Assembly (NCBI GenBank): GCA_039794045.1
Contig: JBAMLY010000009.1
Location: 38,609-102,608 of the forward strand
Reading direction: 5' to 3'
Length of the DNA: 64,000 nt
Source of the DNA: Candidatus Micrarchaeia archaeon
Lineage (GTDB): Archaea > Micrarchaeota > Micrarchaeia > Norongarragalinales > UBA8480
The translations under genes were made by a program, and so were the position numbers. Each line of letters opens with the position of its first letter. Within the stretch, counting starts at the first letter, position 1. The notes under the pieces were generated by a model, which made no database searches, was not told where the DNA came from, and was given only the letters and a program-made list of their open reading frames with translations. Shown here piece by piece: positions 1,811 to 48,790 of the stretch.

Positions 1811-1845
1811 TCAAATCAAGCAATAGAGTGGTGGACAAAGCTTTT

Positions 1846-2013
1846 CTACTTTATGTCCGCTATCTCGTCGAACGCTTTTTCGGTTTCGTTGCCGATTACT
1901 TTTTTTCCGGTTTGAGCCGTGCGCTGAAGCTGAGTAATCAAAACGACTGCAACTGCAATGACTGCTGCAATGATTATTATTAGTTCGGCGCTGACTTGAG
2001 CTTTCTCGTCCAT
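1846..2013 (-). CDS. Short Flp-like minipilin, class III signal peptide (start moved to internal ATG)
   Basis: The internal Met gives MDEKA|QVSAELIIIIAAVIAVAVVL (Q+1, E+5), the same MDE[KR]AQ start as the ORFs at 41959 and 44236. A GGAGGA Shine-Dalgarno lies about 8 nt upstream of this ATG. The 34-aa N-terminal extension in the ORF track is unlikely to be real. Confidence 0.55.
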   Translation of the reverse strand: MDEKAQVSAELIIIIAAVIAVAVVLITQLQRTAQTGKKVIGNETEKAFDEIADIK

Positions 2014-2702: not shown

Positions 2703-4868
<2,166 letters not shown>

Positions 4869-5651
4869 TCAAGCAGCGTCTGCGTCGCCGGGAAGCCACG
4901 CAAGCACGCCGTCATTGTTCGTTAAACCAAGAATCTTAATAACCATTTTCGCAAAATCAGTTTTCTTCACGCGCCCAGGCACCACCCGCAAAGCGCCAGC
5001 GGGCTTGGGGCAAACCACTGGAAGCACTGAAAGAATGCCTTCCCTCGCGAAGAACCACAGGCCAAGCGGAACGCCTCGAAACCACTTTCTCTCTCCGTAA
5101 ATCATGAAGCCGCCCTTTGCCACGAACTCGCCGTGAGAATACTTGCTGACTTGGTCGGGCTTCACCGCGTAAACGTCGCAAGAACTAAAGCCACCCTTCC
5201 AAGCGCTGCTGTAACTCGCAGCCCAGCAAGCAGTTTCCAGCAAGTCCTTCTCGCCAGCTTTTTGTCCGTCCTTTAAAATCGTTGCTGGCGCGCCATGAAC
5301 GTCTGCGTGAAAAAACAAGTCCCCTTCACGCAAGTACTTGGCAGCAAGCAACTCATTTTGCTTCGCATCCCTCCCAGCAACGACGAGGAACCCCCCACTC
5401 GTGCGAAACCACCGGAAAGCCTCAAACCACTCACGCTTGCGTGCTTCCTTGACGCGCACGCGCGGCGCTTCGCTCGCAGCACTTTTTTCTTCCTCTAACG
5501 CGATCTGCTTTCTTACTTCCTCCATGGAAGCAAGGGCTGCCTCGCGCTTGCGCTTGGCTTCCTTGGCTGCGTCGAAGTGCTTTGCCGCGTTCTGCCGCGC
5601 ACTCAGATTCAAGTCAATCTCTACCTGCATTAAAATCACTTTCTCCTGCAT
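4869..5651 (-). CDS. DUF814/NFACT-R domain protein (RqcH/FbpA-related)
   Basis: N-terminal coiled-coil region followed by the motif GDLFFHADVHGAP, typical of NFACT-R/DUF814. Length 260 aa. Confidence 0.45.
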   Translation of the reverse strand: MQEKVILMQVEIDLNLSARQNAAKHFDAAKEAKRKREAALASMEEVRKQIALEEEKSAASEAPRVRVKEARKREWFEAFRWFRTSGGFLVVAGRDAKQNELLAAKYLREGDLFFHADVHGAPATILKDGQKAGEKDLLETACWAASYSSAWKGGFSSCDVYAVKPDQVSKYSHGEFVAKGGFMIYGERKWFRGVPLGLWFFAREGILSVLPVVCPKPAGALRVVPGRVKKTDFAKMVIKILGLTNNDGVLAWLPGDADAA

Positions 5652-5926
5652 CTCACGAAAATTATACGCAAGCCCTCTACTATTTCGTTGTCAGGGTTTA
5701 TGCCGAAAAACCTTTCACGACCCCGCCTCTCCTCGGATACGAGACCAAGCCGCTCCAAGTTCTCCATTTCCCTGTGCACCGCGCTGAACGCCAAATCGAG
5801 TTGCTCGGAAAGCTCGCGCAAGTAAAAACTCTCGCCAGATTCTTCCAGCAACTTTGCCAAGATGAGTGCACGCGTCCGCGAACCAAACAAGCGCTCAACA
5901 CGCGAAATATCTAACCTTGAAATCAT
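5636..5926 (-). CDS. Winged-helix transcriptional regulator, ArsR/SmtB-like
   Basis: 96-aa ORF with the RALILAKLLEESGESFYLRELSEQLDLAFSAVHREMENLERLGLV helix-turn-helix region. It overlaps the upstream gene by 16 nt. Confidence 0.65.
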   Translation of the reverse strand: MISRLDISRVERLFGSRTRALILAKLLEESGESFYLRELSEQLDLAFSAVHREMENLERLGLVSEERRGRERFFGINPDNEIVEGLRIIFVRCRRK

Positions 5927-5947
5927 ATTATCTAATATTTAGATAAT
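5927..5947. promoter_or_regulatory. Perfect palindrome ATTATCTAA-TAT-TTAGATAAT abutting the ArsR-like start codon; putative operator
   Basis: A 9-bp inverted repeat with a 3-bp spacer was read directly in the sequence. It lies immediately 5' of the regulator start codon (minus strand) in an AT-rich promoter region. Confidence 0.4.
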
Positions 5948-5987
5948 AGGATTAATAATGTTTTGGGTTACTCACAACAGTGTAAAA

Positions 5988-12434: not shown

Positions 12435-12542
12435 TGCCGCTGGTGTGATTTGAACACACGACATACCGGTCTTCAGCTTCGTCACCCCCGGCGCTTGACG
12501 CGCCGCGGATTCGGACGCTCTCCCAGTCTGAGCTACAGCGGC
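12435..12542 (-). tRNA. Intron-containing tRNA, probably tRNA-Phe(GAA), with a ~34-nt intron at a non-canonical position
   Basis: Reverse complement: acceptor stem GCCGCTG/CAGCGGC, D-arm GCTC-AGACTGGGA-GAGC, T-arm GTGTG-TTCAAAT-CACAC, discriminator A. An anticodon-loop candidate CTGAAGA lies next to CCGGT. About 34 extra nt (containing the hairpin GGCGCGTCAAGCGCC) sit 5' of the loop, and I could not place exact exon-intron borders by eye. Confidence 0.55.
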
Positions 12543-37670: not shown

Positions 37671-38036
37671 GTGGTTGGAGTGAGCGAGTTCAAGCAAGCA
37701 ATAATAATTCGCTGCGACCTCGGAATGGGGAAAGGAAAAATGGTGGCGCAAGGAAGCCATGCGTCGCTCCTCGCCTTTGAGGAAGCCCTAAAGAAAAACG
37801 AGGAAGCCGCGCGCGCTTGGCAAGCGAGCGGAAGCAAGAAAATAGTTCTGAGGGCTGCAAGCGAAAAAGAACTCGTCGAACTATACGCTAAAGCAAGGAA
37901 GGCAAGACTGCCTGCAGCGCTCGTAGTTGACGCGGGGCACACGCAAATAGAGGCGGGCACGAAGACCGCAGCTGGCATCGGACCAGCAGAAGAAAGCGCG
38001 CTTGACAAGATCACTGGAAAACTCAGGTTGTTATAG
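37671..38036 (+). CDS. pth2: Peptidyl-tRNA hydrolase Pth2 (archaeal type)
   Basis: 121 aa: KQAIIIRCDLGMGKGKMVAQGSHASL...GIGP, characteristic of Pth2. Confidence 0.85.
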   Translation: MVGVSEFKQAIIIRCDLGMGKGKMVAQGSHASLLAFEEALKKNEEAARAWQASGSKKIVLRAASEKELVELYAKARKARLPAALVVDAGHTQIEAGTKTAAGIGPAEESALDKITGKLRLL

Positions 38037-38088
38037 CGCTGCCACAAAGCTTTTTGAACACTCGCCGCATTCTATTTTTGAGCGCAAA

Positions 38089-39645
38089 ATGGCTTACTTG
38101 GACGAATTGATAGGGAAAGCGAAAGCGCAAAAAAAGGGAGTGGCTGGGCTCACGCCTGGCACGAAAGAACCAGAAAAGCCAGGCGGGCCAGAAAAAGAAA
38201 AAGTGTTGATTGACACTTACGACTCAGTCCACATCTACCGCGTGCCAGGAGAAGCCCTCTACTTCTACGAAGTCCCAACCCCGCGCTACCGCGGCGAAGA
38301 AAAAGCCTTGATTCAAGCCCTCATGGACATCGCAAGCAAAGTAATAGAAAGCGAGCACGAAGTCCCCCGCACTCTAGAGCAAAAGCGTTTCGCTTACAAG
38401 CAAAAAATCCTTGACATAATAGAGTCAACGCCGGAACTCAAAGTGCCGCCTGCCGCTAAAGAATTTTATGCTGACGCGGTAGTGCGCGAGATGGTAGGCT
38501 GGGGCTTGATAGACCCGCTCCTGGAAGACGAGTGGCTTGAAGATGTTATGGTGAACGGCCCAAACCAGCCAGTCTACGTCTTCCACAGGAAATACGACAT
38601 GATGAAGACGAACATAGTCTTCTACGACGACAAAGACATTCGCGACTTGATAGACCGCATCGCGCGCACCATAGGACGCCACATAGACATTCAAACCCCT
38701 TTGCTGGACGCGAGGCTCCCCGACGGAACGCGCGTGAACGCAACAGTGCCGCCAGCGAGCTTGAACGGCTCCACTTTGTCAATAAGAAAGTTCCGCACCG
38801 ACCCAATAACCATAATAGACTTAGTAAACTACGGCACGCTCAACTACGAAGTGGCCGCGTTTCTTTGGCTGGCAGCCGACGGCTTCGGAGCAAAGCCAGC
38901 CAACATGATAATAAGCGGCGGCACGGCAAGCGGGAAGACGACGCTATTGAACGTCATCTCGTCACTGGTGCCGAACAGCGAGCGCGTCATCACAATAGAA
39001 GACACTGCTGAACTCAACTTGCCGCTGGAGCAATGGGTTCGCTTTGAAACAAGGCCTCCTGGCGTGGAGGGCGGCGGCGAACTCACGATGGACATGCTGT
39101 TAAAGAACTCGCTGCGCATGAGGCCAGACCGCATCATTGTCGGCGAAATCCGGGGAGAGGAAGGACACACTCTTTTCTCGGCGATGAACACAGGACACGA
39201 CGGCTGCCTTGGAACGCTTCACGCAAACAGCGCGCGTGAAACCCTCATTCGCCTCAGCAACCCGCCAATCAACGTTCCCCTCATAATGCTTTCTTCCCTC
39301 AACTTCATCATAATGGAGCAGAGAATCAATGACCGCCGCAAGGGACTCATTCGCCGCATCACGGAAATAGCGGAAGTGATTTCAGTAGAGGAAAACAAGA
39401 TGCCCGAACTCCAAGTAATCTATCAATGGGACCCCGCAAAAGACGTCCTGCAAAGCACTGGAATGAATCCCTTGTACTTCCAAGTACTGCAGCGCTACAC
39501 GGCCTACACCAAGGACGTCATAGAAGAAGAACTCAAAAACCGCGCCAACATATTGAGGGAACTAAACTCGCGTGGCGTGCGCAGCCTCTCTGACGTGTGC
39601 GCCGTAACCCACAACTACATCTTGCGCACTCAAGGAAAACTGTGA
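38089..39645 (+). CDS. Type IV pilus assembly ATPase (FlaI/PilB/TadA-like); start moved to MAYLDEL
   Basis: Walker A ISGGTASGKTT, Asp/His boxes (RPDRIIVGEIRG, GTLHANS). It heads a locus with PilC-like genes and many prepilins. Confidence 0.85.
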   Translation: MAYLDELIGKAKAQKKGVAGLTPGTKEPEKPGGPEKEKVLIDTYDSVHIYRVPGEALYFYEVPTPRYRGEEKALIQALMDIASKVIESEHEVPRTLEQKRFAYKQKILDIIESTPELKVPPAAKEFYADAVVREMVGWGLIDPLLEDEWLEDVMVNGPNQPVYVFHRKYDMMKTNIVFYDDKDIRDLIDRIARTIGRHIDIQTPLLDARLPDGTRVNATVPPASLNGSTLSIRKFRTDPITIIDLVNYGTLNYEVAAFLWLAADGFGAKPANMIISGGTASGKTTLLNVISSLVPNSERVITIEDTAELNLPLEQWVRFETRPPGVEGGGELTMDMLLKNSLRMRPDRIIVGEIRGEEGHTLFSAMNTGHDGCLGTLHANSARETLIRLSNPPINVPLIMLSSLNFIIMEQRINDRRKGLIRRITEIAEVISVEENKMPELQVIYQWDPAKDVLQSTGMNPLYFQVLQRYTAYTKDVIEEELKNRANILRELNSRGVRSLSDVCAVTHNYILRTQGKL

Positions 39646-39657
39646 GGCCTTCAGTGA

Positions 39658-40797
39658 ATGCCTGAAAGCAAGCTGGAAAAAATAAAGCGCGCCGTGGAAA
39701 AAACAGAGCTTGAAACCCGCGCCGAAGTCTTGAAGGAAGAAGAGCTGGCGCGCCGCCGCGAACTCGACGAAATAATCGCAAAACTCAAGGAAAAACAAAA
39801 AAAAGGTTTTGTGGCAGAAAAGCGGCTGGAAAAAATAAAGGAGCACGTAGAAGAAAAACCAGAAATAAGCGAGGAAGAAACCAAGGCAGCAATCCGCTTG
39901 CAAGTAAGCAAGACGAAGGGAGTAGGCTGGTTTTACTCTTCCCTGCAAAAACCCATAACTTCAGTGTCAAAAGTTTTCTCTGTTATTCCAGTCGCAAAAA
40001 ACTTGAAGAAAGAACTCGCAAGCGCAGACATGCACATCACGCCAGAAGCCTACCTCGCCCTAACTACCACGGTCTCCGTCATAGCCGCAATAACTACTTG
40101 GATTGCCGCAGGCATTCTAGCGACTAGCTTGAGTAACTTGAGTGTAATAGAAATAGCTTCATCTATCTCGCTTGCCTTCGTTGGAGCAGTGCTGGCGTTC
40201 TTCGGGGTTTCTGCAGTCGCGCTCGCTTACCCTTCAATTCGCGCGTCCGAGCGAGCAAACAAAATAGACAAGGAACTGCCGTTCGCGTTGCGCCACCTCG
40301 CCACTCAACTCAAGGCCGGCGTGAGCCTCAACCGCGCAATGCGGTCAGTCGCGGACGCCAACTACGGCGCACTCACGCAAGAGTTCAGAAAAACGCTCGC
40401 TGACTTGGAGAGCGGCTTGAGCACGGAAGACGCGTTATTGAAGCTTGCAGACCGCAACCGCTCTCGAGGCCTAAAGCGCGCGGTAGTGCAAATAACGCGC
40501 GCGATCAGGACGGGCGGAAACCTCGCCGAAATAATTTCATCCATAGCAGACGACATCTCGTTTGAGTCCCGCATGAAAATACGCGACTTCACGGAAATGC
40601 TGAACATAATAAGCATAGTCTACATAATGGTAGGAGTAGTCGCGCCAGTAATGATAACCATTCTGTCCGCCGTAGCCCAGCTGCCAGTGTTCGGTGGCGG
40701 GATAGCATTCGGATTAGTGCTCGCAGTGTTCGCGGGAATAGTGGGCGCTACTGGCGCCCTCATCTTCCTAATCAAGAGACTAGAACCAGTAGCGTGA
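39658..40797 (+). CDS. Type IV pilus platform membrane protein (TadC/FlaJ/PilC-like)
   Basis: 379 aa with a coiled-coil N-terminus, then TM helices and a GspF/TadC-like cytoplasmic segment (LPFALRHLATQLKAGVSLNRAMRSVAD). Follows the ATPase. Confidence 0.65.
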   Translation: MPESKLEKIKRAVEKTELETRAEVLKEEELARRRELDEIIAKLKEKQKKGFVAEKRLEKIKEHVEEKPEISEEETKAAIRLQVSKTKGVGWFYSSLQKPITSVSKVFSVIPVAKNLKKELASADMHITPEAYLALTTTVSVIAAITTWIAAGILATSLSNLSVIEIASSISLAFVGAVLAFFGVSAVALAYPSIRASERANKIDKELPFALRHLATQLKAGVSLNRAMRSVADANYGALTQEFRKTLADLESGLSTEDALLKLADRNRSRGLKRAVVQITRAIRTGGNLAEIISSIADDISFESRMKIRDFTEMLNIISIVYIMVGVVAPVMITILSAVAQLPVFGGGIAFGLVLAVFAGIVGATGALIFLIKRLEPVA

Positions 40798-40801
40798 AAA
40801 A

Positions 40802-41845
40802 ATGACTTCGCTTTCGCAGCAGTGGGAAAACTTGAAGCGCTACTATGCGGCAACCGGCTTCCGAATAAGCCTGCCTGCCTTCATGGCGGTGATGCTGGCT
40901 TTCGCGGCAATAGCTGCCATGGCAAGCCTTGCGTTAATTCAACTCTTGCCGCCGGACTTGAAGCAGAACGCCCCCATAGTCGCGGCAGCATGCTTTGCAG
41001 CAATAATTTCGTTAATCATAGGCATTCCCGTTACGATCAGAAACAACCGCATTTCAGCAATAGAAAATAACTTGCCTGACGCGCTCAAGCACATGGCTTT
41101 AGTATTAAAGGCAGGCGGAACCACTGAAGCCGCGCTAGAAGAAGTGGCGAACGCAGACTACGGCCCACTCAGCGCAGACCTCAAAATTGGCTTGAAGGGC
41201 TTGAAGGAAGGAAAGCCGTTCGACGACGTGCTCCGCGAAACCGCAATAAACACTGGCTCGGTGTTGTTCAACAGGACTAGCGCAATAATGGTTGACGCGC
41301 GCCGCGCTGGCGCTGGCTTGGCAGATGTCATGAACGCGGTGGGAGACGACGCGCGAGACATTCTCCGCATCGGGCGCGAGCGAAAGAGTAGGACGATGAT
41401 GCACGTAATGTTCCTAATAATTTCAGGGTTGTTTCTCTCGCCATTCATTTTCGGCTTCACGATGAGCATTGTTTCCTTCATGTCTTCCGGAATTGCAGTG
41501 AGCGGCACAGGGCTCGGCGAAAGCGGGAGCACCGTCAACATGACAATCGCAGACTGCAGGGTTCCCTGCCTCATTCAAACCGACCCAGTAATGGCTGGCT
41601 TTCTCGCGGCCGGCCTTGCTCCCTTGAACACCGTAAAGCCATTGTACGAGTGGAGGCTCAACGCAATGGACCAGCTTTTAATGGTTTTCCTCGCAATAGT
41701 TTCAATAGTCACGCTCGTAGCAATAGGAGTTATAAGGGAAGGAAAACTGTTCAAGTACGTGCTTTACTTCCCCTTCGCCATACTCGCAGTAATAGTAATA
41801 TATTTGGCTGGAAAAATATTCAGTGGATTCATTATTGGGTCGTGA
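40802..41845 (+). CDS. Second TadC/FlaJ/PilC-like platform membrane protein
   Basis: 347 aa, paralogous in layout (LPDALKHMALVLKAGGTTEAALEEVANADYG). Tandem with the 39658 gene, as split PilC halves would be. Confidence 0.65.
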   Translation: MTSLSQQWENLKRYYAATGFRISLPAFMAVMLAFAAIAAMASLALIQLLPPDLKQNAPIVAAACFAAIISLIIGIPVTIRNNRISAIENNLPDALKHMALVLKAGGTTEAALEEVANADYGPLSADLKIGLKGLKEGKPFDDVLRETAINTGSVLFNRTSAIMVDARRAGAGLADVMNAVGDDARDILRIGRERKSRTMMHVMFLIISGLFLSPFIFGFTMSIVSFMSSGIAVSGTGLGESGSTVNMTIADCRVPCLIQTDPVMAGFLAAGLAPLNTVKPLYEWRLNAMDQLLMVFLAIVSIVTLVAIGVIREGKLFKYVLYFPFAILAVIVIYLAGKIFSGFIIGS

Positions 41846-41849
41846 AAAA

Positions 41850-41951
41850 ATGAGGGCGCAAACAGCAATAGAATACCTTCTCTTGATAGCGATGGCGGTT
41901 GTCGCGGTAACCGCCATAACTTACTTCGTGAAAACGGTTTTGTCGCGGTGA
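41850..41951 (+). CDS. Minipilin (33 aa) with class III signal peptide; absent from the ORF track
   Basis: MRA|QTAIEYLLLIAMAVVAVTAITYFVKTVLSR, with Q+1 and E+5. I found it by reading the sequence, and it is below the ORF-track size cutoff. Confidence 0.45.
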   Translation: MRAQTAIEYLLLIAMAVVAVTAITYFVKTVLSR

Positions 41952-41958
41952 AAGAAAA

Positions 41959-42165
41959 ATGGATGAAAAAGCACAGGGAGCATTCGAGTACATTTTAATG
42001 CTGGCAGGCATTCTCTTGATCGTGGTCGTAATAATAATGGTGGTGAAGTCCAACATTCTCTCGCCGGCCACAGGGACAGTAGAACAAACAACTGGTCAAT
42101 ACCAGCAAACCACTAACTGTAGTGACTTGAACGCTTCAACGCTGCAGGAATGCTTGAACAAATAA
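41959..42165 (+). CDS. Short pilin (68 aa), class III signal peptide MDEKA|QGAFEY
   Basis: The signal peptide and helix are nearly identical to the four major pilin paralogs, but the C-terminal part is short (2 Cys, sequons NCS, NAS). Confidence 0.6.
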   Translation: MDEKAQGAFEYILMLAGILLIVVVIIMVVKSNILSPATGTVEQTTGQYQQTTNCSDLNASTLQECLNK

Positions 42166-42179
42166 GGAAGGTGAAAAAA

Positions 42180-42602
42180 ATGGGTTTTGCGCCGCGAAAG
42201 GGACAGGGAGCCTTCGAGTACATATTATTGCTCGCTGGCATTCTCTTAATAGTAGTAATCGTAATAATAGTCCTCAAAAGCGGTTTGACGCAGCAGTCGA
42301 GCACGAACATTGGAGAGTCAAGCGAGAAAATCCGCGTGAACGCGGCAGTGCGGTGCCTAGACTTCTGCGGCGACGGCGCGTGGGCTTGGGTAAAGTCAGC
42401 TAACTCGTCGATAACGCTTCAATACAACTCTTCTTGCCCGATTGCCGCAGGACTCAATGGAACTCCTAATTGCTTCTGGACTGGAAGCGACAACGCCGTC
42501 GGCTGCAACGCCACGTGGTCTACTGGAAGCAGCGTCTACGCCAACACTCCGCCCAACAACGCGAAATTCTGTCAGTTGGCGCAGCAGAGCTCGAGCAGCT
42601 GA
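42180..42602 (+). CDS. Major pilin paralog 1 (class III signal peptide, 6-Cys framework)
   Basis: MGFAPRKG|QGAFEYILLLAGILLIVV, then CLDFCGDGAW and C..NC..GCNAT..FC. Sequons NSS, NSS, NGT, NAT. RBS AGGAAGGTG upstream. Confidence 0.75.
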   Translation: MGFAPRKGQGAFEYILLLAGILLIVVIVIIVLKSGLTQQSSTNIGESSEKIRVNAAVRCLDFCGDGAWAWVKSANSSITLQYNSSCPIAAGLNGTPNCFWTGSDNAVGCNATWSTGSSVYANTPPNNAKFCQLAQQSSSS

Positions 42603-42610
42603 GCGCCACC

Positions 42611-42643
42611 CCTCTTTTTATTTTTATTCAAACTATTTTTTTC
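42611..42643 (+). promoter_or_regulatory. AT/T-rich intergenic element (TTTTTATTTTTATT): putative TATA/BRE promoter for pilin paralog 2 and T-rich terminator for paralog 1
   Basis: This is the only AT-rich stretch between the two pilin ORFs and lies about 20-30 nt upstream of the ATG at 42644. Confidence 0.35.
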
Positions 42644-43081
42644 ATGCCACGAAAACGCGGGCAAGGAGCTTTTGAATACATCTTGTTAGTCGCAGGCATT
42701 CTGTTAATCGTGGTCGTCGTCGTCTTGCTCTTGAAGTCAGGCGTAGTGCAAGGCGCGCAGAAAAACGTTGGCGAAAGCAGTGGAAGGCTTTCCGTGAACA
42801 GCAAGATAAGCTGCCTAGATTTCTGCGGCGAAGGGGCTTGGAGTTACGTGGCGAACGCCGAGCCAAGCGCGCGCGTGACGCCTTACGTTGACGCGTGCAC
42901 TCTCGCGGAAGGAGTGAACGGCAACGCTTCCTGTTTTTACGGTGAAAGCGACGCGGCTGCGCGCGACGGCGCCTACCATTACTGGTGCAACGCATCCAAC
43001 GTGACTGGAATGCAGAAGTACGCAAACACGCGTCCCAACAACCAGTTGTTCTGCGGCTACGTGCGCGAAAACGCTCCCTGA
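42644..43081 (+). CDS. Major pilin paralog 2; start moved to MPRKRG|QGAFEY
   Basis: Same signal peptide; CLDFCGEGAW, AC..SC..WCNAS..FCGYV. Sequons NAS, NAS, NVT. Confidence 0.75.
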   Translation: MPRKRGQGAFEYILLVAGILLIVVVVVLLLKSGVVQGAQKNVGESSGRLSVNSKISCLDFCGEGAWSYVANAEPSARVTPYVDACTLAEGVNGNASCFYGESDAAARDGAYHYWCNASNVTGMQKYANTRPNNQLFCGYVRENAP

Positions 43082-43099
43082 AAAGAATTTATATCGCGG

Positions 43100-43588
43100 T
43101 TGATTATTGGCTTAAACGGTTTGAGAGAGATTAAATTGAGAATTCCAGAGTTTGGGAAAAGAGGCCAGGGAGCCTTTGAATACATTTTGCTCGTCGCAGG
43201 CATTCTGCTCATCGTCGTGCTCGTCATACTACTCCTAAAGGGCGGGCTGGTGTCGCAAAGCGGTGCCAACGTGGCCGAGTCAGGCGAGAAAGCACGCATA
43301 AACAGCGAAATAAATTGCCTGCAATTCTGTGGCGCTGGCGCGTGGAAGTACATAACGCCAAATGCGAAGGGTAATTACACTAATTGCACTGTAAGAGAAG
43401 GAATAACCGGCAATCCGGCGTGCTTCTGGAACGCCAGCACTGGCGACACGGCAACCTGCAACGTCACTGCAGTTCTCATCGAGGCAGGCTATACTCCATC
43501 CGAGGCAGCAAAATACTACAATGTAACGCCCGCCAACACTGACTTCTGCGGCTACGTAAGGCAGACCGCCAAGGAAAGCACGAGGTAA
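43100..43588 (+). CDS. Major pilin paralog 3 (start uncertain: TTG at 43100, 43121 or 43136)
   Basis: ...EFGKRG|QGAFEYILLVAGILLIVV; CLQFCGAGAW, NC..AC..TCNVT..FCGYV. Sequons NYT, NCT, NAS, NVT, NVT. A TTTATAT box sits at about 43088. Confidence 0.7.
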   Translation: MIIGLNGLREIKLRIPEFGKRGQGAFEYILLVAGILLIVVLVILLLKGGLVSQSGANVAESGEKARINSEINCLQFCGAGAWKYITPNAKGNYTNCTVREGITGNPACFWNASTGDTATCNVTAVLIEAGYTPSEAAKYYNVTPANTDFCGYVRQTAKESTR

Positions 43589-43686
43589 GCAACGCGACCC
43601 ACCCGTGACTTTAAAAAAGCCACGAAATTTATTTTTAAAGAAGTGAACGCCTTCGAGGCGTTAAAAAGAATGGAGGGAAAAAGAAA

Positions 43687-44157
43687 ATGGTGCCCACCTT
43701 GAATTTAAAAAAGAAGAAAGGGCAGGGAGCCTTCGAGTACATCTTGCTCGTCGCAGGCATTCTGCTCATCGTAGTAATCGTGGTCTTCCTGTTGAAGGGA
43801 GGACTGCAAGCGCAAGCCGGAAGCGGCGGTGTAGTAAGCACGAGCACGGAAAAAATCAACATCAACGTGGAAAGCCAGTGCTTGGACTTCTGCGGCCCGG
43901 GCGCTTGGGCAGCGTACGGAGTGCAAAACAGTGACTTCGCAAACACTAATTGCACTCTCGCCGAAGGAGTAAACGGCAACAGCAGCTGCTACTACTCTGC
44001 AACCACTATAGGCAATAACGGCTTATGTAACGCGACTTACGTCTTAAAGCCCGGCGTTGCGCAAAGCAAGGGCTTACTGAACTCAAGTGGCGCCACGGTA
44101 GTACACCCGCAGAACACGCAGTTCTGCACTTACGTGCGCCAAGCAAGAGCAGGCTAG
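43687..44157 (+). CDS. Major pilin paralog 4
   Basis: MVPTLNLKKKKG|QGAFEYILLVAGILLIVV; CLDFCGPGAW, NC..SC..LCNAT..FCTYV. Sequons NCT, NSS, NAT, NSS. GGAGGG RBS upstream. Confidence 0.75.
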   Translation: MVPTLNLKKKKGQGAFEYILLVAGILLIVVIVVFLLKGGLQAQAGSGGVVSTSTEKININVESQCLDFCGPGAWAAYGVQNSDFANTNCTLAEGVNGNSSCYYSATTIGNNGLCNATYVLKPGVAQSKGLLNSSGATVVHPQNTQFCTYVRQARAG

Positions 44158-44235
44158 AACTTCCCGCTTTTCCCCCTTTTTTTATTTCTTCTTTTCCCTA
44201 AACCTTTTTATTGAAGGCGGGCCTGCAATAAAGTC

Positions 44236-44406
44236 ATGGACGAGCGAGCGCAGACCGCCACTGAGTACTTGCTTATTCTAGCGCTTGGCCTCGTCTTGCT
44301 CGGCGTCGTGCTCGCCATGGCTTTGCGCCTCCGCGACTTCAGCAACGTCTTGACCGGCCGCGTGGCAGAAGAAAGAAACAATACCTTGTCGATGCTAGTC
44401 AGCTGA
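44236..44406 (+). CDS. Minipilin (56 aa) with class III signal peptide; absent from the ORF track
   Basis: MDERA|QTATEYLLILALGLVLLGVVLAMAL.... The start mirrors the ORFs at 1846 and 41959. Confidence 0.5.
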   Translation: MDERAQTATEYLLILALGLVLLGVVLAMALRLRDFSNVLTGRVAEERNNTLSMLVS

Positions 44407-44439: not shown

Positions 44440-45492
44440 ATGCAGTACGCCTTGCCGGCATTAGTGGCAGCAGCTTTTGCTTGCACTGCAACAGTGTGGG
44501 ACTTGAGGAAGCGCTTGATTCCCAACGCGTTAAACTATTCATTTCTCGCCGCGGGGGCGGCGCTGGCGCTAGCGCAAGGAATTTTTTCTGTGGGTTACGT
44601 CGGACTAGTTGCGTTGTCTTTTGCTTTCGCTTATGCTTTGTACAAGGCAGGCGTTTGGGCTGGGGGAGACGCAAAGTTTTTCACGGCGCTCTCGTCTTTC
44701 CTGCCTTTCTTTTGGCAAGTACCGTTGACTGGCTGGAACGTTTTCTCTTTCCTAGCAATATTTTTTTACTCGGTGGCAGCAGGAGTGCCTGTCACTCTCC
44801 TCGCTTGCGCGCCAAAGCTGTGGTTGTTGCGTGGCGAGCTCGCTTCGCTCTTGCGCGCAGCAGCGCCGCGCGCTTTCTCGGCAGCGCTTGCTTCAGCGGC
44901 GGTTGCCTTTGCGTTGCAAAAGTTTTTCGCGCTCGTTCCACAAGCTGGTTGGGTTGCCTCGGCAGCCGCAGTCGTGTTTTTGTTGGCGGCGCGCGTGCCG
45001 CTAGCGGTTTCTGCGGCCGTCTTCGTTGCCGCTCTCGCGCTAGACCCGTTGAACTCGCTTGAGTTGTTTGCTGGCGCGCTCGCGGTCTCGTGGCTTGCGT
45101 TGTTCGCGTGGCAGGCGCTCGCGCTTGCCAGGAACAAGGTTTTGCGCCGCCACGTGAGAGTAGACGAGTTAGAAGAGGGAATGATTCCGGCTTACTCTGT
45201 GGTCGTTGACGAGAGCGGAAGAGCGCGGGAGTTGAGAACGCCTGGCTTAAAGGAGTTGCTTGCCGCCGCGGGAAAGGCTGATGCTGCCGCGCTGGCGCGG
45301 TTGCTCAAGCCACGGGAAAGAATAGTCGCGGACTCCAGGCTAGCTCGTGGTTTGAGTGAGACAGAGATAAAGGAATTAAAGGCGCTTGGAGTAAAGAGTT
45401 TGGTTGTCCGCGAGTCCATCGCGTTCGCGCCAGTAATGGTTGCTGGGTTCGCGTTGGCGGCTTTGCTGGGAGTGAAGTGGCTTGGCTTTTAA
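44440..45492 (+). CDS. Prepilin/preflagellin peptidase (A24 family, FlaK/PibD/EppA-like)
   Basis: First catalytic Asp in DLRKRLIPN, second in GGDAKFF, and a polytopic membrane topology. At 350 aa it has a long hydrophobic C-terminal extension. Confidence 0.8.
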   Translation: MQYALPALVAAAFACTATVWDLRKRLIPNALNYSFLAAGAALALAQGIFSVGYVGLVALSFAFAYALYKAGVWAGGDAKFFTALSSFLPFFWQVPLTGWNVFSFLAIFFYSVAAGVPVTLLACAPKLWLLRGELASLLRAAAPRAFSAALASAAVAFALQKFFALVPQAGWVASAAAVVFLLAARVPLAVSAAVFVAALALDPLNSLELFAGALAVSWLALFAWQALALARNKVLRRHVRVDELEEGMIPAYSVVVDESGRARELRTPGLKELLAAAGKADAAALARLLKPRERIVADSRLARGLSETEIKELKALGVKSLVVRESIAFAPVMVAGFALAALLGVKWLGF

Positions 45493-45916
45493 GAGAGGAC
45501 AGTTGGGAATAGAGTTTTTCTTGGTGGTGGCGTTCGTGCTTGTTCTCGGCAGCGTCTTGAGTGCTTCCGTGGACGAGCAAGTCATTGCCGCGAGGGCCTT
45601 AGACAGGGCTGCGCTAGCGAAAAGCGCGGTGGATGCAGTGTCTCACGCAATAAACCTCGTCACGCTGGAAGGCAACGGGGCTCTTGCCAGCAGAGAAGTT
45701 TTCTTTCCAGCTGAAACGCAGTGCATCCAGTACAGCAGCGCACGCAAGGCGCTTTACTGCGATGTCGCGGGAGCAGGCAAGGTTTACGGCGTAGCGCTTT
45801 ACCGCGAGCCGACAGTGTTACTGAATTGTTTTTCTTCAGGCACTCAAGGCTGGTTCCTTGTGACCGTGAATGGAACCAGCAATGGAGCGCAAGTTAATTG
45901 TACTAAACTGGGTTGA
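45482..45916 (+). CDS. Pilin-like protein (class III signal peptide MAFKRG|QLGIEFF), TTG start
   Basis: Q+1 and E+5, a hydrophobic helix and 3 Cys. It overlaps the peptidase stop by 11 nt. Confidence 0.6.
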   Translation: MAFKRGQLGIEFFLVVAFVLVLGSVLSASVDEQVIAARALDRAALAKSAVDAVSHAINLVTLEGNGALASREVFFPAETQCIQYSSARKALYCDVAGAGKVYGVALYREPTVLLNCFSSGTQGWFLVTVNGTSNGAQVNCTKLG

Positions 45917-45922
45917 AGTTGT

Positions 45923-46312
45923 TTGCGGGGGCAAGCTTTTTCAGAGTATTTGCTCGTCGTCGCCTTCATCGTGGCGCTGGCGGCGTTCTTCGTGCTTCCA
46001 GGCGCCCACCAAACAGAGGTGACGATGGGCTTGGCTGGCGCGCGCCTGGGTTGCGCGGAATACTCTGCAATTGAAAACTCTTCAGTTTACTGCACAGAGT
46101 TTTCTTACGCGGCAAGCGGACCGAACTTGACTATTTATCCCAAGGTGTTCGACTTGCAAGGCAAAAGAGTCACGGACTTGCCTGGAAGTTTTTACGCGCG
46201 AGTAATTTCAGGCATCGCAGGAAACATTTTAAACAACCGGAGTTTTTCTTGCGTTAACTGTATTTCGTGTTGGGTGGGGCACTACAATTACTGTGTTAAC
46301 GCGACGAGTTGA
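45923..46312 (+). CDS. Pilin-like protein (class III signal peptide MRG|QAFSEYLL), TTG start
   Basis: Q+1 and E+5, 6 Cys, sequons NSS, NLT, NRS, NAT. Confidence 0.6.
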   Translation: MRGQAFSEYLLVVAFIVALAAFFVLPGAHQTEVTMGLAGARLGCAEYSAIENSSVYCTEFSYAASGPNLTIYPKVFDLQGKRVTDLPGSFYARVISGIAGNILNNRSFSCVNCISCWVGHYNYCVNATS

Positions 46313-46836
46313 TGCGAGTGGACAACGCTTCAAAGTTTTACTTGCTGCTTGTTTGCGGGCTCGCGTTCGCCAGCGTTTCGGCTTTCGCGGAACCTTTGTT
46401 AGCGTTCGCTGGCTTTGCAGCGTTCTTGGTTGCAGCCATTGCTTTATCTAAGCGGTTCAAGGAAGCCGAGTTAAATGACGCGTGGAAGCTGCTCGCGCTC
46501 ACTGCCGTGATGGCTGCGCTCATGTTCAACGCGCGGTTGTTGTCTCGCGCTGGCGCTTTCGCCGTCGCAGTTGCGCTTGCTGTAGTCGTAGCGGCGTTCA
46601 CTGCGTTCAAGTTGCTTGCAAGCCGCAACGCGGTTGGCAGGGTGGTGGGGAGAAGGCGCGGCTTCATTTTAGTTGAAACAACTCGTTCGCTCTTGTCTCC
46701 TCTTCCTCCAGGAGTTTACGCCGTGAAAAGCACTGCAAGGCACCGAGAAGGAGAAAAAGTTGAGTTGCGCGTGAGCAAGGGCTTGTTTGGCCCGCCAAAG
46801 CCCGTGGAAGTGCTTTCTTGCAAGAAAAAGGAATAA
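46312..46836 (+). CDS. Membrane protein with C-terminal beta-rich (possibly NfeD-like OB) domain
   Basis: Three TM helices then GFILVETTRSLLSPLPPGVYAVKS...GEKVELRVSKG. Its ATG overlaps the upstream stop (TGATG). Confidence 0.4.
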   Translation: MRVDNASKFYLLLVCGLAFASVSAFAEPLLAFAGFAAFLVAAIALSKRFKEAELNDAWKLLALTAVMAALMFNARLLSRAGAFAVAVALAVVVAAFTAFKLLASRNAVGRVVGRRRGFILVETTRSLLSPLPPGVYAVKSTARHREGEKVELRVSKGLFGPPKPVEVLSCKKKE

Positions 46837-47201
46837 TTTTTTTCTGCGTCATCGTCTCGCTTGCAGGGGTGGCGGCGCTGTTTTTCTTGTCTTGGTCTCT
46901 CGAGCCACGCAAGGCAGCAATAAACGAGTTGGGTTTGGAGGACGTCGGCAAGAAAGTGCTTGTTTCTGGGTTTGTGGCGTCCGCGCGCAAGTCTGGCGGA
47001 AACTATTTCTTGAAGGTCTGCGATTCAAGCGCCTGCATTCAAGTCCCCGTTTTTTCCTCTGTTGCGGCGAGAATGAAGGAAAGGGGTTTTGACGCGGGCA
47101 GCGTGGGAAAGGGAGACTTCATTGAAGTAGTAGGCGCGGTAAGCGAGTACGGCGGCGAGCTCGAAGTCGTGGCAGCCGAGTTAGACGTGCTTAGAAAATG
47201 A
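46818..47201 (+). CDS. Membrane-anchored OB-fold protein
   Basis: N-terminal TM helix then KKVLVSGFVASARKSGGNYFLKVCDSSACIQV...GDFIEVVGAVSEYGGELEVV, a typical OB-fold (tRNA_anti-like) pattern. Confidence 0.45.
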   Translation: MQEKGIIFFCVIVSLAGVAALFFLSWSLEPRKAAINELGLEDVGKKVLVSGFVASARKSGGNYFLKVCDSSACIQVPVFSSVAARMKERGFDAGSVGKGDFIEVVGAVSEYGGELEVVAAELDVLRK

Positions 47202-48343
47202 GTGAGTTAGTCGCTTTTCTTGCTGGAACCGCGGTCGGCGCGCTCGGATTGATTCCGTTTCTTCACACTAACACTTTAGTGGAGTTGCTTCCGCGTTTTC
47301 TTGAAAGCGGGCCTGCAGCCGTTTTCGTGGTCTCCCTCGCCTTCAGCCACGCCGTGTTCGAAGTGCTTCCCGCGACTTTCTTTGCGGTGCCGTCCGCCTC
47401 GCAGAACATAAGCGTCGTGCCTGCGCACAGGCTAGCTCGCGAGGGGAAAGGCTTTCAAGCAATGAAGTTGATGGCTTACTCTCTCGCCGCCGGCGTTTTC
47501 TTTGGCGTGCTCGCGTCTCCTGCAGCCACGTTCTTGCTTCCATTGGCTTACTCGCTCGTCAAGCCAGTTACGGCCTTGCTTTTGTGCGGCGTGGTCGCAG
47601 TAATGCTCGCAGGAGAAAAAAACTTTTTCGCGGGATTGATTGTAGCGTGCTTGTCTGGATTGCTGGGCTTAGCTTCTTTTGGCTTGCCTCTCCCAGAACC
47701 AGTTTTTCCTTTGCTGGCGGGCTTGTTCGCAGTTCCTGCAGCGCTTGCTGGCGCTCGCGCGAGCGAGTTGGTGGAGCAGAGTGCGGGCGAACCACGCGTG
47801 CCGTGGGCGATGGTGCTGCTCGGCGCTTTTCTTGGCGCGTGCTCTGGGTTGCTGCCTGCCTTGAGTCCCGCCCTCTTGGCGGGAATCGCTTTCGTCTTCG
47901 TCAAGTCTGGTTCGGAGAAATTCATTGCTTTGACTTCCTCGATTGCCGGCGCAAAACTGGTTTCCGACTTGATAGTGCTTGGAGAGCTCGGCAAGGCCAG
48001 GTCTGGCGCGGCCGCAGCAGTGCAAAGCTTTCTTGGAGTGCCTTCTGCAACTGAAACCACTTTATTGGTGGTAGCGGGCGCGGCTGCGCTCGCGGCAGCG
48101 CTGGCTGCGCTGTTGCTGGTTTACAGGCGGGCCGCGCTAGCGCTTTGCGGCAAAAACTATGCTTTTTCAAGCAAGGTTTTCTTGTCGTTCTTGGCAGTCA
48201 TGTTGTTCTTTTTCGGTGGTTGGCTGGCTTTATTTGTTTGCGCTGTCGCCGCGTGCGTGGGAGTGCTTGCGCTCTTGCTGAATTGCAAGCGCAGCCTATG
48301 CTGTGCGGCGCTCTTGGTTCCAGCAATAGCTGCCTTGATTTAA
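47198..48343 (+). CDS. Polytopic Ala/Gly-rich membrane protein (possibly DUF112/TctA-like)
   Basis: 381 aa with roughly 10 TM helices. ATGA overlap with the upstream gene. The family call is from memory. Confidence 0.45.
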   Translation: MSELVAFLAGTAVGALGLIPFLHTNTLVELLPRFLESGPAAVFVVSLAFSHAVFEVLPATFFAVPSASQNISVVPAHRLAREGKGFQAMKLMAYSLAAGVFFGVLASPAATFLLPLAYSLVKPVTALLLCGVVAVMLAGEKNFFAGLIVACLSGLLGLASFGLPLPEPVFPLLAGLFAVPAALAGARASELVEQSAGEPRVPWAMVLLGAFLGACSGLLPALSPALLAGIAFVFVKSGSEKFIALTSSIAGAKLVSDLIVLGELGKARSGAAAAVQSFLGVPSATETTLLVVAGAAALAAALAALLLVYRRAALALCGKNYAFSSKVFLSFLAVMLFFFGGWLALFVCAVAACVGVLALLLNCKRSLCCAALLVPAIAALI

Positions 48344-48373: not shown

Positions 48374-48790
48374 ATGGTGCGCGCCCAACTGTCAATTGAA
48401 TTGTTTTTTGCTTTAGCATTGTTTTTCCTGGTGCTTTCGTGGGTGTCAAACTATGCTTCCACTGTCTATGACTCGCCAGCCCTCGTTTACACGCAGGAAA
48501 AAGCGGTAGCCAACTCACTGGTTGCCGCCGCGAACGCAGCCTGCGCTTCAAACACTTCGTCTTCTTTTTATTTGCCCTGCATTTCCAAGCGCGGCACAAA
48601 CTACGACTACGAGGCATTCAACGCGACCTCTAACTCGCCCGAGTTGCGAGTGCGCGTTCCAGCCCTGAACTCGTTCGCGCAAGCCAGGGCCTTGTGCCCA
48701 ATTTCAGGTTACGCCTCGGCTGAATGCGGGACTCTCGTGTGCATGAAAAGTAATTCTTCGTCAGTGTTGCTGAAAAACGGTGCTTGTTGA
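48374..48790 (+). CDS. Pilin-like secreted protein (class III signal peptide MVRA|QLSIELFF)
   Basis: Q+1 and E+5, 7 Cys, sequons NTS, NAT, NSS. Confidence 0.55.
   Translation: MVRAQLSIELFFALALFFLVLSWVSNYASTVYDSPALVYTQEKAVANSLVAAANAACASNTSSSFYLPCISKRGTNYDYEAFNATSNSPELRVRVPALNSFAQARALCPISGYASAECGTLVCMKSNSSSVLLKNGAC

What the first reader, a model, noticed from the sequence alone, without database searches (positions are those of the whole stretch)
41850..44406. Flp-like minipilins flanking the major pilin array, two of them missed by ORF calling
The 33-aa MRA|QTAIEYLLLIAMAVVAV... (41850-41951) and the 56-aa MDERA|QTATEYLLILALGL... (44236-44406) fall below the ORF-track size threshold. Both have perfect class III features (Q+1, E+5, a 20-aa hydrophobic helix) and sit exactly at the two ends of the pilin array. 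Together with the ORFs at 41959 and 1846 they share an MDE[KR]AQ/MRAQ N-terminus. They are candidate minor or initiator pilins, or Flp-type fibre subunits.
Basis: seen in the sequence. Interest (0 to 1): 0.55.

Follow-up and report, generated by a model that had tools for sequence, protein, structure and literature searches.

The report
Conserved mini-pilin genes in Micrarchaeota
Two tiny genes (33 and 56 codons) at the ends of a pilin gene array in a Micrarchaeota (DPANN archaeon) pilus operon are real and conserved; they encode single-helix, headless pilin-like proteins of the archaeal Epd / bacterial Tad-Flp kind, so this is a tidy but largely expected component of a known type of machine.

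Summary
Both small ORFs exist exactly as described and are real genes. HMMs built only from orthologues score them at 62 and 83 bits, against at most 9 and 17 bits in 30 shuffled windows. The window is a Candidatus Micrarchaeota contig carrying an Epd-like ("System 1", Tad-like) type IV filament operon: ATPase, two single-domain platform genes, mini1 (33 aa), mini2 (68 aa), four paralogous 140-156-aa pilins, mini3 (56 aa), an A24 prepilin peptidase, then more pilin-like genes. Mini1 follows tadC directly in 31 of 36 related loci. Its mature length is fixed at 29-32 aa while the leader varies from 3 to 20 aa. Mini3 sits directly upstream of the peptidase and has a mature length of exactly 51 aa in 79 of 84 clusters. 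Both are under purifying selection, have invariant Q+1/E+5/Y+6, and are predicted as single helices (pLDDT 94-95). Mini1 passes Pfam PF04021. Mini3 has no Pfam hit but is homologous to mini1 (hhalign 97%). Neither passes Flp_Fap. Public annotation already calls both, so "missed by ORF calling" reflects only the first stage's size threshold. The most likely role is as conserved minor or priming pilins, but a thin Flp-type fibre made of mini3 is not excluded. This is a new member of a known kind, of modest interest.

The parts
38002..39645 (+). TadA/EpdL-like assembly ATPase. Public gene calls start it at 38089 (518 aa).
   Evidence: Pfam T2SSE, E 3.6e-48. Gene calls.
39658..40797 (+). First platform protein (TadB-like), with a single T2SSF domain.
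   Evidence: Pfam T2SSF, E 1.1e-25.
40802..41845 (+). Second platform protein (TadC-like), with a single T2SSF domain.
   Evidence: PF00482 in the public gene calls. 41-66% identical homologues in 36 Micrarchaeota loci.
41850..41951 (+). mini1: 33-aa prepilin-like protein with leader MRA and a 30-aa mature single helix (finding ORF 1).
   Evidence: PF04021 26.2 bits, above the gathering score of 23.7. The ortholog-only HMM scores 62.2 bits. It lies directly after tadC in 31 of 36 loci. Alignment A2 is. pN 0.11 against pS 0.65 versus L006. AF2 predicts a helix over residues 2-32, pLDDT 94.3.
41959..42165 (+). mini2: 68-aa short pilin with leader MDEKA and a C-terminal pair of Cys plus N-x-S/T sequons.
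   Evidence: PF04021 28.3 bits. It is conserved as the second gene after tadC (alignment A5).
42180..42602 (+). Pilin paralogue 1 (140 aa), Cys-rich head, many N-glycosylation sequons.
   Evidence: PF04021 33.1 bits. 40-53% identical to its paralogues.
42644..43081 (+). Pilin paralogue 2 (145 aa).
   Evidence: PF04021 31.3 bits.
43136..43588 (+). Pilin paralogue 3 (150 aa, TTG start).
   Evidence: PF04021 29.8 bits.
43687..44157 (+). Pilin paralogue 4 (156 aa); hot spot of strain-level variation.
   Evidence: PF04021 33.0 bits. It holds 14 of 33 (L001) and 12 of 23 (L005) differences between near-identical contigs.
44236..44406 (+). mini3: 56-aa prepilin-like protein with leader MDERA and a 51-aa mature single helix (finding ORF 2).
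   Evidence: The window copy has no Pfam hit. The ortholog-only HMM scores 83.2 bits. The mature length is 51 aa in 79 of 84 clusters, with invariant Q1, E5, Y6 and R42. hhalign to mini1 gives 97.4%, E 1.5e-11. AF2 predicts a helix over residues 3-55, pLDDT 95.4. It is adjacent to the peptidase in related loci.
44440..45492 (+). Prepilin (class III signal) peptidase.
   Evidence: Pfam Peptidase_A24 E 3.4e-11 plus Arc_PepC E 1.7e-6. NCBIfam EppA scores only 14.9 bits against a cut-off of 450.
45482..45916 (+). p144: pilin-like protein (KRG|QLGIEFFLVV...), a candidate minor pilin.
   Evidence: Class III-like N-terminus. It is syntenic after the peptidase in related loci.
45923..46312 (+). p129: pilin-like protein (RG|QAFSEYLLVV...), a candidate minor pilin.
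   Evidence: The mini1 ortholog HMM scores it at 15.6 bits.
48374..48790 (+). p138: a further pilin-like protein (MVRA|QLSIELFF...).
1846..2013 (-). Stand-alone 55-aa short pilin with leader MDEKA (the '1846' ORF of the finding, with corrected start).
   Evidence: PF04021 26.2 bits. It is called in the public annotation. A GGAGG motif lies 9-13 nt upstream of the ATG.

Best explanation
The two ORFs are real genes for headless type IV pilin-like preproteins in an Epd-like (archaeal 'System 1', Tad-like) type IV filament operon of a Micrarchaeota archaeon. Each is made with a short cytoplasmic leader ending in [KR]-[AG]. Each inserts in the membrane through its hydrophobic N-terminal helix. Each is cut before Gln+1 by the co-encoded A24 aspartyl prepilin peptidase (44440-45492). 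This leaves a 30-residue helix (mini1, essentially alpha1-N plus six polar residues with an invariant Lys25) and a 51-residue continuous helix (mini3, with a hydrophobic N-half and an amphipathic polar C-half). The ATPase and the TadB/TadC platform then lift them from the membrane into the filament. The most likely role is as conserved, low-abundance 'core' or minor pilins rather than the bulk subunit. Mini1 (with mini2) is genetically coupled to the platform and probably primes assembly or plugs the hydrophobic core at the start of assembly. Mini3 heads the peptidase/p144/p129 minor-pilin module. The four variable, sequon-rich 140-156-aa paralogues would form the exposed shaft. SHOWN: coding status, family conservation, synteny, the cleavage-motif signature, single-helix models, and homology to PF04021. 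INFERRED: cleavage by this peptidase, incorporation into the filament, and the minor or priming role.
For: Coding and conservation. Ortholog-only HMMs score 62.2 and 83.2 bits, against at most 9.3 and 16.7 bits in shuffles. pN/pS is 0.11/0.65 for mini1 against L006 and 0.21/0.67 for mini3 against L007; family means are 0.31/0.76 and 0.36/0.75.

Processing signature. The leader length varies (3-20 aa) while the mature length is fixed. Mature mini1 is 29-32 aa in 99 of 119 hits and mature mini3 is 51 aa in 79 of 84. Position -2 is K/R, position -1 is G/A/S, and Q+1, E+5 and Y+6 are invariant or nearly so across both families.

Family. Mini1 scores 26.2 bits on PF04021 (gathering score 23.7), and 80 of 82 relatives hit PF04021. 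Of the mini3 relatives, 74 of 84 hit PF04021 weakly. hhalign between mini3 and mini1 gives 97.4%.

Structure. Both are single helices at pLDDT 94-95.

Machinery context. The locus has a T2SSE ATPase, two single-T2SSF platform genes and an A24 peptidase. Two platform genes plus short pilins is the Epd/Tad hallmark (PMC6668835; preprint 10.64898/2026.04.22.720090).

Minor rather than major role. Mini1 starts -10 to +30 nt from the tadC stop in about 20 of 31 loci, and 4 nt from it here. Mature mini1 is 37-77% identical across loci, as conserved as TadC (41-66%). The large pilins are undetectable by tblastn beyond the two closest loci. Strain-level variation concentrates in paralogue 4, with no amino-acid change in the minis. 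Mini1 almost never carries a glycosylation sequon (2 of 99). Mini3 stays with the peptidase, p144 and p129 even when that module is separated from the ATPase module (L032). Essential minor pilins are typically the conserved ones and start assembly at the tip (PMC10191384). A 67-76-aa PF04021 protein, MMP1283, is an essential minor pilin in M. maripaludis (PMC3875500).
Against: There are no expression, cleavage or localisation data. In M. maripaludis and in Tad systems the short headless pilin is the MAJOR subunit (MMP1685, 62 aa mature, PMC3875500; Caulobacter PilA, 45 aa, PMC10710030), so mini3 could be a fibre subunit. In a related archaeon (L048) only 49-, 86- and 58-aa pilin-like genes lie between tadC and the peptidase, with no large pilin. 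A 30-residue mature protein is below the 40-60-residue range reported for any filament-forming pilin (PMC10710030), so incorporation of mini1 is uncertain. The adjacent peptidase is not an EppA equivalog. The high identity of short transmembrane helices is partly compositional.
Confidence: 0.55

Rival explanations
1. Mini3 (and possibly mini2 or the 1846 protein) is itself the major subunit of a thin, headless Flp/EpdE-type fibre built by the same machinery. The larger Cys-rich paralogues would form a second filament type or decorate it.
For: Mature mini3 is 51 aa, one continuous helix with a polar C-terminal half, inside the 40-60-residue range of Tad pilins, which lack a globular domain (PMC10710030). 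[quoted passage not shown] The only pilin hits for the mini1 and mini3 profiles in the PDB are the Caulobacter Tad pilins 8u1k and 8u2b, aligned in register at TAIEY, although E is only 0.26-0.45. The gene lies next to the prepilin peptidase, as flp does next to tadV (from memory of tad loci). In window, L006 and L007 a T-rich tract and a TATA-like CTTTTTATT lie about 30 nt upstream of its ATG. L048 has no large pilin in the locus. The major Epd pilin MMP1685 is 62 aa when mature (PMC3875500). System 1 loci have been suggested to make two pilus types (preprint 10.64898/2026.04.22.720090).
Against: Mini3 is strongly conserved and shows no amino-acid variation between strains, whereas exposed major pilins usually vary, as paralogue 4 does here. 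An N-x-S/T sequon at positions 43-45 is present in only 34 of 79 members. In most distant loci mini3 has no separate promoter-like spacer. It always travels with the p144/p129 minor-pilin-like genes.
Confidence: 0.25
2. Mini1 is not a filament subunit. After cleavage (or uncleaved) it stays in the membrane as a small subunit or regulator of the TadB/TadC platform or of the peptidase. It would be a pilin-shaped helix that occupies the pilin-docking site or tunes assembly.
For: The mature protein is only 29-32 aa, too short to provide any filament surface. Its gene is coupled to tadC with overlapping or near-overlapping start and stop in most loci. It is as conserved as the platform itself. It has an invariant Lys25 just beyond the hydrophobic stretch and almost no glycosylation sequons.
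Against: It keeps every feature of a peptidase substrate and of the pilin alpha1-N assembly motif (K/R at -2, G/A at -1, Q1, T2, E5, Y6) shared with the pilins of the same operon. It would not need all of these merely to be a membrane anchor. No precedent was found in the papers read.
Confidence: 0.18
3. The ORFs are chance open frames in intergenic spacers and are not expressed.
For: They are very short. The window copy of mini3 has no Pfam hit.
Against: HMM scores are 62 and 83 bits against at most 17 bits in shuffles. There are 141 and 84 database clusters. Position is conserved in 31 of 36 loci. pS is saturated while pN is low. Mature lengths are fixed.
Confidence: 0.01

Closest known systems
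Methanococcus maripaludis Epd pilins of the DUF361/PF04021 (UPF0333) family: major pilin MMP1685 (EpdE), essential minor pilin MMP1283, plus MMP0528 and MMP0903
   Same: Archaeal. Short class III leader ending in G/A with K/R nearby. Q at +1 and E at +5. Very small proteins without a globular head (54-63 aa mature). They belong to a system with two platform genes and a dedicated A24 peptidase (PMC3875500, PMC6668835). Mini1, mini2 and the 1846 protein pass the PF04021 threshold.
   Different: Mini1 is half that size (30 aa mature). Mini3 (51 aa) falls below PF04021 detection in the window copy. The peptidase here is not an EppA equivalog. Here the pilin genes sit in one operon with the ATPase, platform and peptidase, whereas in M. 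maripaludis they are scattered over at least four loci (PMC3875500). The host is a DPANN archaeon.
Bacterial Flp/Tad (type IVc) pilins, e.g. Caulobacter crescentus PilA (PDB 8U1K) and Flp (8U2B); Pfam Flp_Fap PF04964
   Same: Mature length of 40-60 residues. A single continuous helix with no globular domain. The E5-Y6 'Flp motif' in a hydrophobic N-terminus (PMC10710030). A TadA/TadB/TadC-type machine thought to descend from an archaeal Epd-like system (PMC6668835). Mini3 fits all of these. The TAIEY of mini1 aligns in register with PilA. JGI labels some family members 'Flp pilus assembly pilin Flp'.
   Different: The window copies do not hit PF04964, and only 30 of 82 (mini1) and 2 of 84 (mini3) relatives hit it weakly. 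Position +1 is Gln, not the residues seen in bacterial Flp. There is no secretin or Rcp genes, since this is an archaeon. Mini1 is shorter than any Flp.
TadE/TadF pseudopilins (minor pilins of Tad systems)
   Same: Pilin-like genes encoded downstream of tadC. Processed by the same peptidase. Required for assembly rather than forming the shaft (PMC10191384). 25 of 84 mini3 relatives give weak TadE (PF07811) N-terminal hits.
   Different: TadE and TadF are much larger proteins with C-terminal domains (from memory). The hits here cover only the shared N-terminal helix and are below threshold.

Membership tests
Pfam PF04021 Class_IIIsignal (DUF361; archaeal Epd-type short pilins) | HMM score at or above the gathering score (23.7 bits) | tested here: met
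   Mini1 (41850-41951) scores 26.2 bits, mini2 28.3 bits and the 1846 protein 26.2 bits. 80 of 82 mini1 relatives hit it, best E 6.6e-9.
Pfam PF04021 Class_IIIsignal (DUF361; archaeal Epd-type short pilins) | The same HMM criterion applied to mini3 (44236-44406) | tested here: inconclusive
   The window copy has no hit at E<=1. 74 of 84 family members have sub-threshold or weak hits, best E 5.6e-5. Profile-profile homology to mini1 is 97.4%, E 1.5e-11. Mini3 is therefore homologous but is a divergent subfamily outside the curated model.
Pfam PF04021 Class_IIIsignal (DUF361; archaeal Epd-type short pilins) | Short leader ending in G/A, Gln at +1, Glu at +5, followed by a hydrophobic helix (QxSxExxxL-type motif) | tested here: met
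   Seen directly in the sequence. Q1 and E5 are invariant in mini3, and E5 is invariant and Q1 nearly so across mini1 relatives. Position -1 is G/A/S and position -2 is K/R.
Epd (EppA-dependent) pilus system | Processing by an EppA-type prepilin peptidase | tested here: not met
   The adjacent peptidase has Peptidase_A24 plus Arc_PepC domains. It scores only 14.9 bits against NCBIfam EppA, whose cut-off is 450. Actual cleavage cannot be tested with these tools.
Epd-like / archaeal TFF 'System 1' / Tad-like locus | One T2SSE ATPase plus two adjacent platform genes with one T2SSF domain each, short pilins, and a class III peptidase | tested here: met
   The criterion comes from PMC6668835 and preprint 10.64898/2026.04.22.720090. 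Micrarchaeon Mia14 is reported to carry a Methanococci-group T4P locus (PMC5498576).
Pfam PF04964 Flp_Fap (bacterial Flp pilins) | HMM match | tested here: not met
   Neither window copy hits it at E<=1. Weak hits occur in 30 of 82 mini1 relatives (best E 1.9e-4) and 2 of 84 mini3 relatives (best E 6.6e-4).
Flp/Tad pilin architecture | Mature length of 40-60 residues, a single helix, no globular domain, Glu5-Tyr6 | tested here: met
   This holds for mini3: 51 aa, helix over residues 3-55 at pLDDT 95.4, E5/Y6 invariant. The criterion comes from PMC10710030. Mini1 has the helix and E5/Y6 but is only 30 aa, outside the range.
Minor (priming) pilins | Low abundance in the filament, and required for or present at the start of assembly | not testable with these tools
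   Only indirect support is available: conservation, operon position, and lack of strain variation.

The most novel reading that the evidence does not exclude
Mini1 defines a so far undescribed class of 'alpha1-N-only' pilin: a 30-residue processed helix, translationally coupled to tadC and conserved across Micrarchaeota. It would act either as the obligatory first subunit or core plug that nucleates a headless or short-pilin filament, or as a stoichiometric pilin-shaped subunit of the platform. That would make it the smallest functional type IV pilin-like protein known and a handle on how type IV filament assembly is primed in minimal DPANN cells.
Probability: 0.2. Interest if true: 0.6.

Novelty: new member of a known kind. 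Interest (0 to 1): 0.33.

Why it matters
DPANN archaea such as Micrarchaeota live attached to host cells, and pili are suspected to mediate that contact (PMC5498576). This operon has a fixed gene order: ATPase, tadB, tadC, mini1, mini2, variable pilins, mini3, peptidase, minor pilins. That order gives a compact parts list for an archaeal relative of the bacterial Tad pilus. The 51-aa mini3 family has no Pfam model and is labelled 'hypothetical' by NCBI. The 30-aa mature mini1 lies below the size range of any described pilin. If their roles were established, they would inform how headless pilins are primed and assembled. They would also inform what the archaeal ancestor of Flp/Tad pilins looked like. 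As it stands, the finding mainly confirms correct biology that annotation pipelines already partly capture.

Tried and rejected
- A single-sequence database search with mini3 found only itself and one 86% relative. A profile was needed.
It was re-run with a longer first row.
- Foldseek of the mini3 model against the PDB gave no matches, as expected for a lone helix.
- PDB sequence searches gave only non-significant Tad pilin hits (E 0.26-0.45). These were used as a lead, not as proof.
- NCBIfam gave nothing useful for the small proteins.
- The peptidase has no sequence relative in the PDB.
- ARAGORN and Rfam found only one tRNA far away at 12435-12542 and no RNA feature in the region.
- The sigma-70 promoter/terminator scanner was not used because the organism is an archaeon. 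Upstream regions were read by eye instead, and the TATA-like elements noted there are inference only.
- A simple regex for Q...E plus a hydrophobic stretch gave about eight false positives in the window. It was dropped in favour of HMMs.
- The idea that the ORFs are chance frames was rejected.
- The idea that the 89-aa GTG form of the 1846 ORF is the product was rejected in favour of the 55-aa ATG form.


Full report
**What is in the sequence.** Both ORFs are present as described.
- The first is 41850-41951 (+), encoding MRAQTAIEYLLLIAMAVVAVTAITYFVKTVLSR (33 aa).
- The second is 44236-44406 (+), encoding MDERAQTATEYLLILALGLVLLGVVLAMALRLRDFSNVLTGRVAEERNNTLSMLVS (56 aa).

The surrounding genes form one same-strand cluster:
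- a T2SSE ATPase (38002/38089-39645);
- two platform genes with one T2SSF domain each (39658-40797 and 40802-41845);
- the 33-aa ORF, here called mini1, 4 nt after the platform stop;
- a 68-aa short pilin, mini2 (41959-42165);
- four paralogous 140-156-aa Cys-rich pilins (42180-44157), all matching PF04021;
- the 56-aa ORF, mini3;
- an A24 prepilin peptidase with an Arc_PepC domain (44440-45492);
- further proteins with pilin-like N-termini (45482-45916, 45923-46312 and 48374-48790).

It scores 26.2 bits on PF04021 and has a GGAGG upstream.

**Origin.** The second platform protein is encoded identically on contigs of two NCBI MAGs of 'Candidatus Micrarchaeia' and on a JGI metagenome contig. 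Thirty-six related loci, with 41-66% identical platform protein, all come from Micrarchaeota or Norongarragalinales MAGs. On the identical contigs the public gene calls already list the 33-aa ORF (flagged PF04021) and the 56-aa ORF. NCBI names them 'class III signal peptide-containing protein' and 'hypothetical protein ACP5O3_01080'. 'Missed by ORF calling' is therefore true only of the first stage's size filter.

**More than chance.** HMMs built from orthologues only, excluding the window and its near-identical contigs, score the window ORFs at 62.2 bits (E 1.8e-18) and 83.2 bits (E 6.6e-25). The best scores in 30 dinucleotide-preserving shuffles were 9.3 and 16.7 bits. All hits above 20 bits lie in the seven ORFs of the pilin array, and the few weaker hits with E<1e-3 are other pilin-like ORFs.

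**Conservation and synteny of mini1.**
- A mini1 orthologue lies directly after the second platform gene in 31 of 36 related loci.
- In the other five loci the pilin genes are simply not next to the platform; four have DnaJ or another gene there, and in L014 mini1 lies 5.9 kb away.
- The gap between the platform stop and the mini1 start is -10 to +30 nt in about 20 loci, which suggests co-transcription and often translational coupling.
- The leader varies from 3 to 20 residues, but the part after Gln+1 is 29-32 residues in 99 of 119 database relatives.
- E+5 and K+25 are invariant across database relatives, Q+1, T+2 and Y+6 are nearly so, and position -2 is K/R.

**Conservation and synteny of mini3.**
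- The mature length is exactly 51 residues in 79 of 84 clusters and 52 in the other five. Q1, E5, Y6 and R42 are invariant.
- Mini3 sits immediately upstream of the A24 peptidase, long or short form, followed by p144- and p129-like genes. L007 is the exception: one extra 133-aa pilin-like gene lies between mini3 and the peptidase there.
- This also holds in L032, where that module lies apart from and inverted relative to the ATPase module.
- It holds in L044 and in L048, an unclassified archaeon whose mini3 relative is distant; other distant relatives include one from Diapherotrites.

**Selection.** Synonymous sites are saturated while non-synonymous change is low. For mini1 against L006, pS is 0.65 and pN 0.11. 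For mini3 against L007, pS is 0.67 and pN 0.21. Family means are 0.76/0.31 and 0.75/0.36.

**Family size.** A profile search of 5.8 billion proteins gives 141 clusters for mini1 and 84 for mini3. A full HMMER scan of 1.84 billion representatives gives only 80 mini3 relatives. These are small, lineage-restricted families.

**What they are.**
- Mini1 passes the curated PF04021 (Class III signal peptide, DUF361) threshold, as do 80 of 82 relatives.
- The window's mini3 has no Pfam hit, but 74 of 84 relatives give weak PF04021 hits, 25 give weak TadE hits and 2 give weak Flp_Fap hits.
- hhalign relates mini3 to mini1 at 97.4% probability, E 1.5e-11.
- AlphaFold2 with family alignments predicts one uninterrupted helix for each: residues 3-55 at pLDDT 95.4, and residues 2-32 at pLDDT 94.3.
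- Thirty of 82 mini1 relatives hit Flp_Fap weakly.
- Searching all PDB sequences with the mini1 profile returns only the two Caulobacter Tad pilins (8u1k and 8u2b). They align in register at TAIEY, mature positions 2-6, but E is only 0.45, so this is a lead and not proof. The mini3 profile behaves similarly.

**Comparison with known systems.**
- Two single-domain platform genes plus short pilins define the Epd-like/Tad clade. Bacterial Tad is inferred to descend from an archaeal Epd-like system (PMC6668835).
- 'System 1' loci of this kind are reported in DPANN, and their primary pilin lacks a globular domain (preprint 10.64898/2026.04.22.720090).
- A Micrarchaeon (Mia14) was reported to carry a Methanococci-group T4P locus (PMC5498576).
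- M. maripaludis DUF361 pilins have 5-13-aa leaders ending in Gly, with Q+1 and E+5. They include very small proteins of 54-63 aa when mature. One of these is the major pilin (MMP1685, 62 aa) and another is an essential minor pilin (MMP1283) (PMC3875500).
- Tad pilins are 40-60 residues, headless continuous helices, with Tyr6 conserved (PMC10710030).

Mini3 (51 aa) fits this known kind well. Mini1 (30 aa) is a more extreme version, essentially alpha1-N alone. The peptidase is A24 plus Arc_PepC and is not an EppA equivalog. The system is therefore Epd-like in architecture but not strictly 'EppA-dependent'.

**Likely role.** Several observations point to conserved, low-copy core or minor pilins rather than shaft subunits.
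- Mini1 is tightly coupled to tadC.
- Mature mini1 is 37-77% identical across loci, against 41-66% for TadC. The large pilins are not detectable beyond the two closest loci.
- Between near-identical strains, 14 of 33 and 12 of 23 nucleotide differences in a 21-kb region fall in paralogue 4 (2% of the length). No amino-acid change falls in the minis.
- Mini1 lacks glycosylation sequons (2 of 99), whereas the large paralogues are rich in them.
- Mini3 always travels with the peptidase and the p144/p129 genes.

Conserved minor pilins that nucleate assembly at the tip are the rule in type IV filaments (PMC10191384).

I therefore favour the following model, at about 55%. Mini1, with mini2, acts as a platform-coupled primer or core plug. 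Mini3 is the first gene of the minor-pilin and peptidase module. The four paralogues form the variable exposed shaft.

**Arguments against the favoured model.**
- In both characterised relatives the headless short pilin is the major subunit.
- L048 has only 49-, 86- and 58-aa pilin-like genes between tadC and the peptidase.
- The window's mini3 has a T-rich tract and a TATA-like element of its own upstream (inference).

A thin Flp-type fibre made of mini3 therefore remains plausible (about 25%). Mini1 may instead stay in the membrane as a platform or peptidase partner (about 18%). Chance ORFs are excluded.

**Verdict.** These are new members of a known kind: PF04021/Epd-type, Flp-like headless pilins in an Epd-like operon of a DPANN archaeon. 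They are already partly annotated in public databases. The fixed 30- and 51-residue mature lengths and the two conserved gene couplings (mini1 with tadC, mini3 with the peptidase) are the points worth keeping. Interest is modest.

Noticed in passing
L006:1072-4347 (also L027 about 3854-6649 and L031 about 3894-6743): In some related Micrarchaeota the pilus ATPase is a single 1091-aa ORF. It has an in-frame insertion of about 530 aa between ...NTGHDG and C(M/L)GTLHAN.... The insertion carries LAGLIDADG-like motifs and ends ...FISN|C, so it looks like an intein with a homing endonuclease. The window's ATPase lacks it.
   Followed up: partly
window 43687-44157: Differences between the window and near-identical contigs from other samples pile up in pilin paralogue 4 (14 of 33 for L001, 12 of 23 for L005). 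The machinery genes and mini-pilins are almost invariant. This suggests diversifying selection or recombination on an exposed pilin.
   Followed up: partly
window 46818-48343: An OB-fold (tRNA_anti-codon) protein gene and a TctA-family membrane protein gene follow the peptidase/p144/p129 genes. The same order recurs in L044 and in the non-Micrarchaeota archaeon L048. This is an unexplained conserved association with the pilus operon.
   Followed up: no
window 39-2013: A second group of ORFs with pilin-like N-termini lies here: 829-1260 (-) MRKHSQASVELIILL..., 1846-2013 (-), and possibly 39-449 and 437-841 (+). They sit next to a DUF116 gene (1232-1810) and an M50-like peptidase gene (2028-2684). 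Public calls show four more small unannotated genes beyond the window edge.
   Followed up: partly
L015:11511-11918, L022:11217-11645, L028:10972-11439: In several related loci the gene after mini3 is a short (135-155 aa) membrane protein. It has the ...KIPNW... motif of A24 peptidases, in place of the 350-aa A24 plus Arc_PepC form seen in the window.
   Followed up: no
L048:5477-6177: An unclassified archaeon (GCA_035289625.1) has the same operon but only 49-, 86- and 58-aa pilin-like genes between tadC and the peptidase. Its mini1 analogue has a 40-aa mature part and Ala instead of Tyr at +6.
   Followed up: partly
window 41959-42165 and orthologues (alignment A5): In the closest relatives, mini2 carries a conserved C-terminal N-C-S...L-N-[AS]-S...C motif: two Cys and two or three N-glycosylation sequons within about 20 residues. 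This amounts to a miniature exposed 'head'.
   Followed up: no
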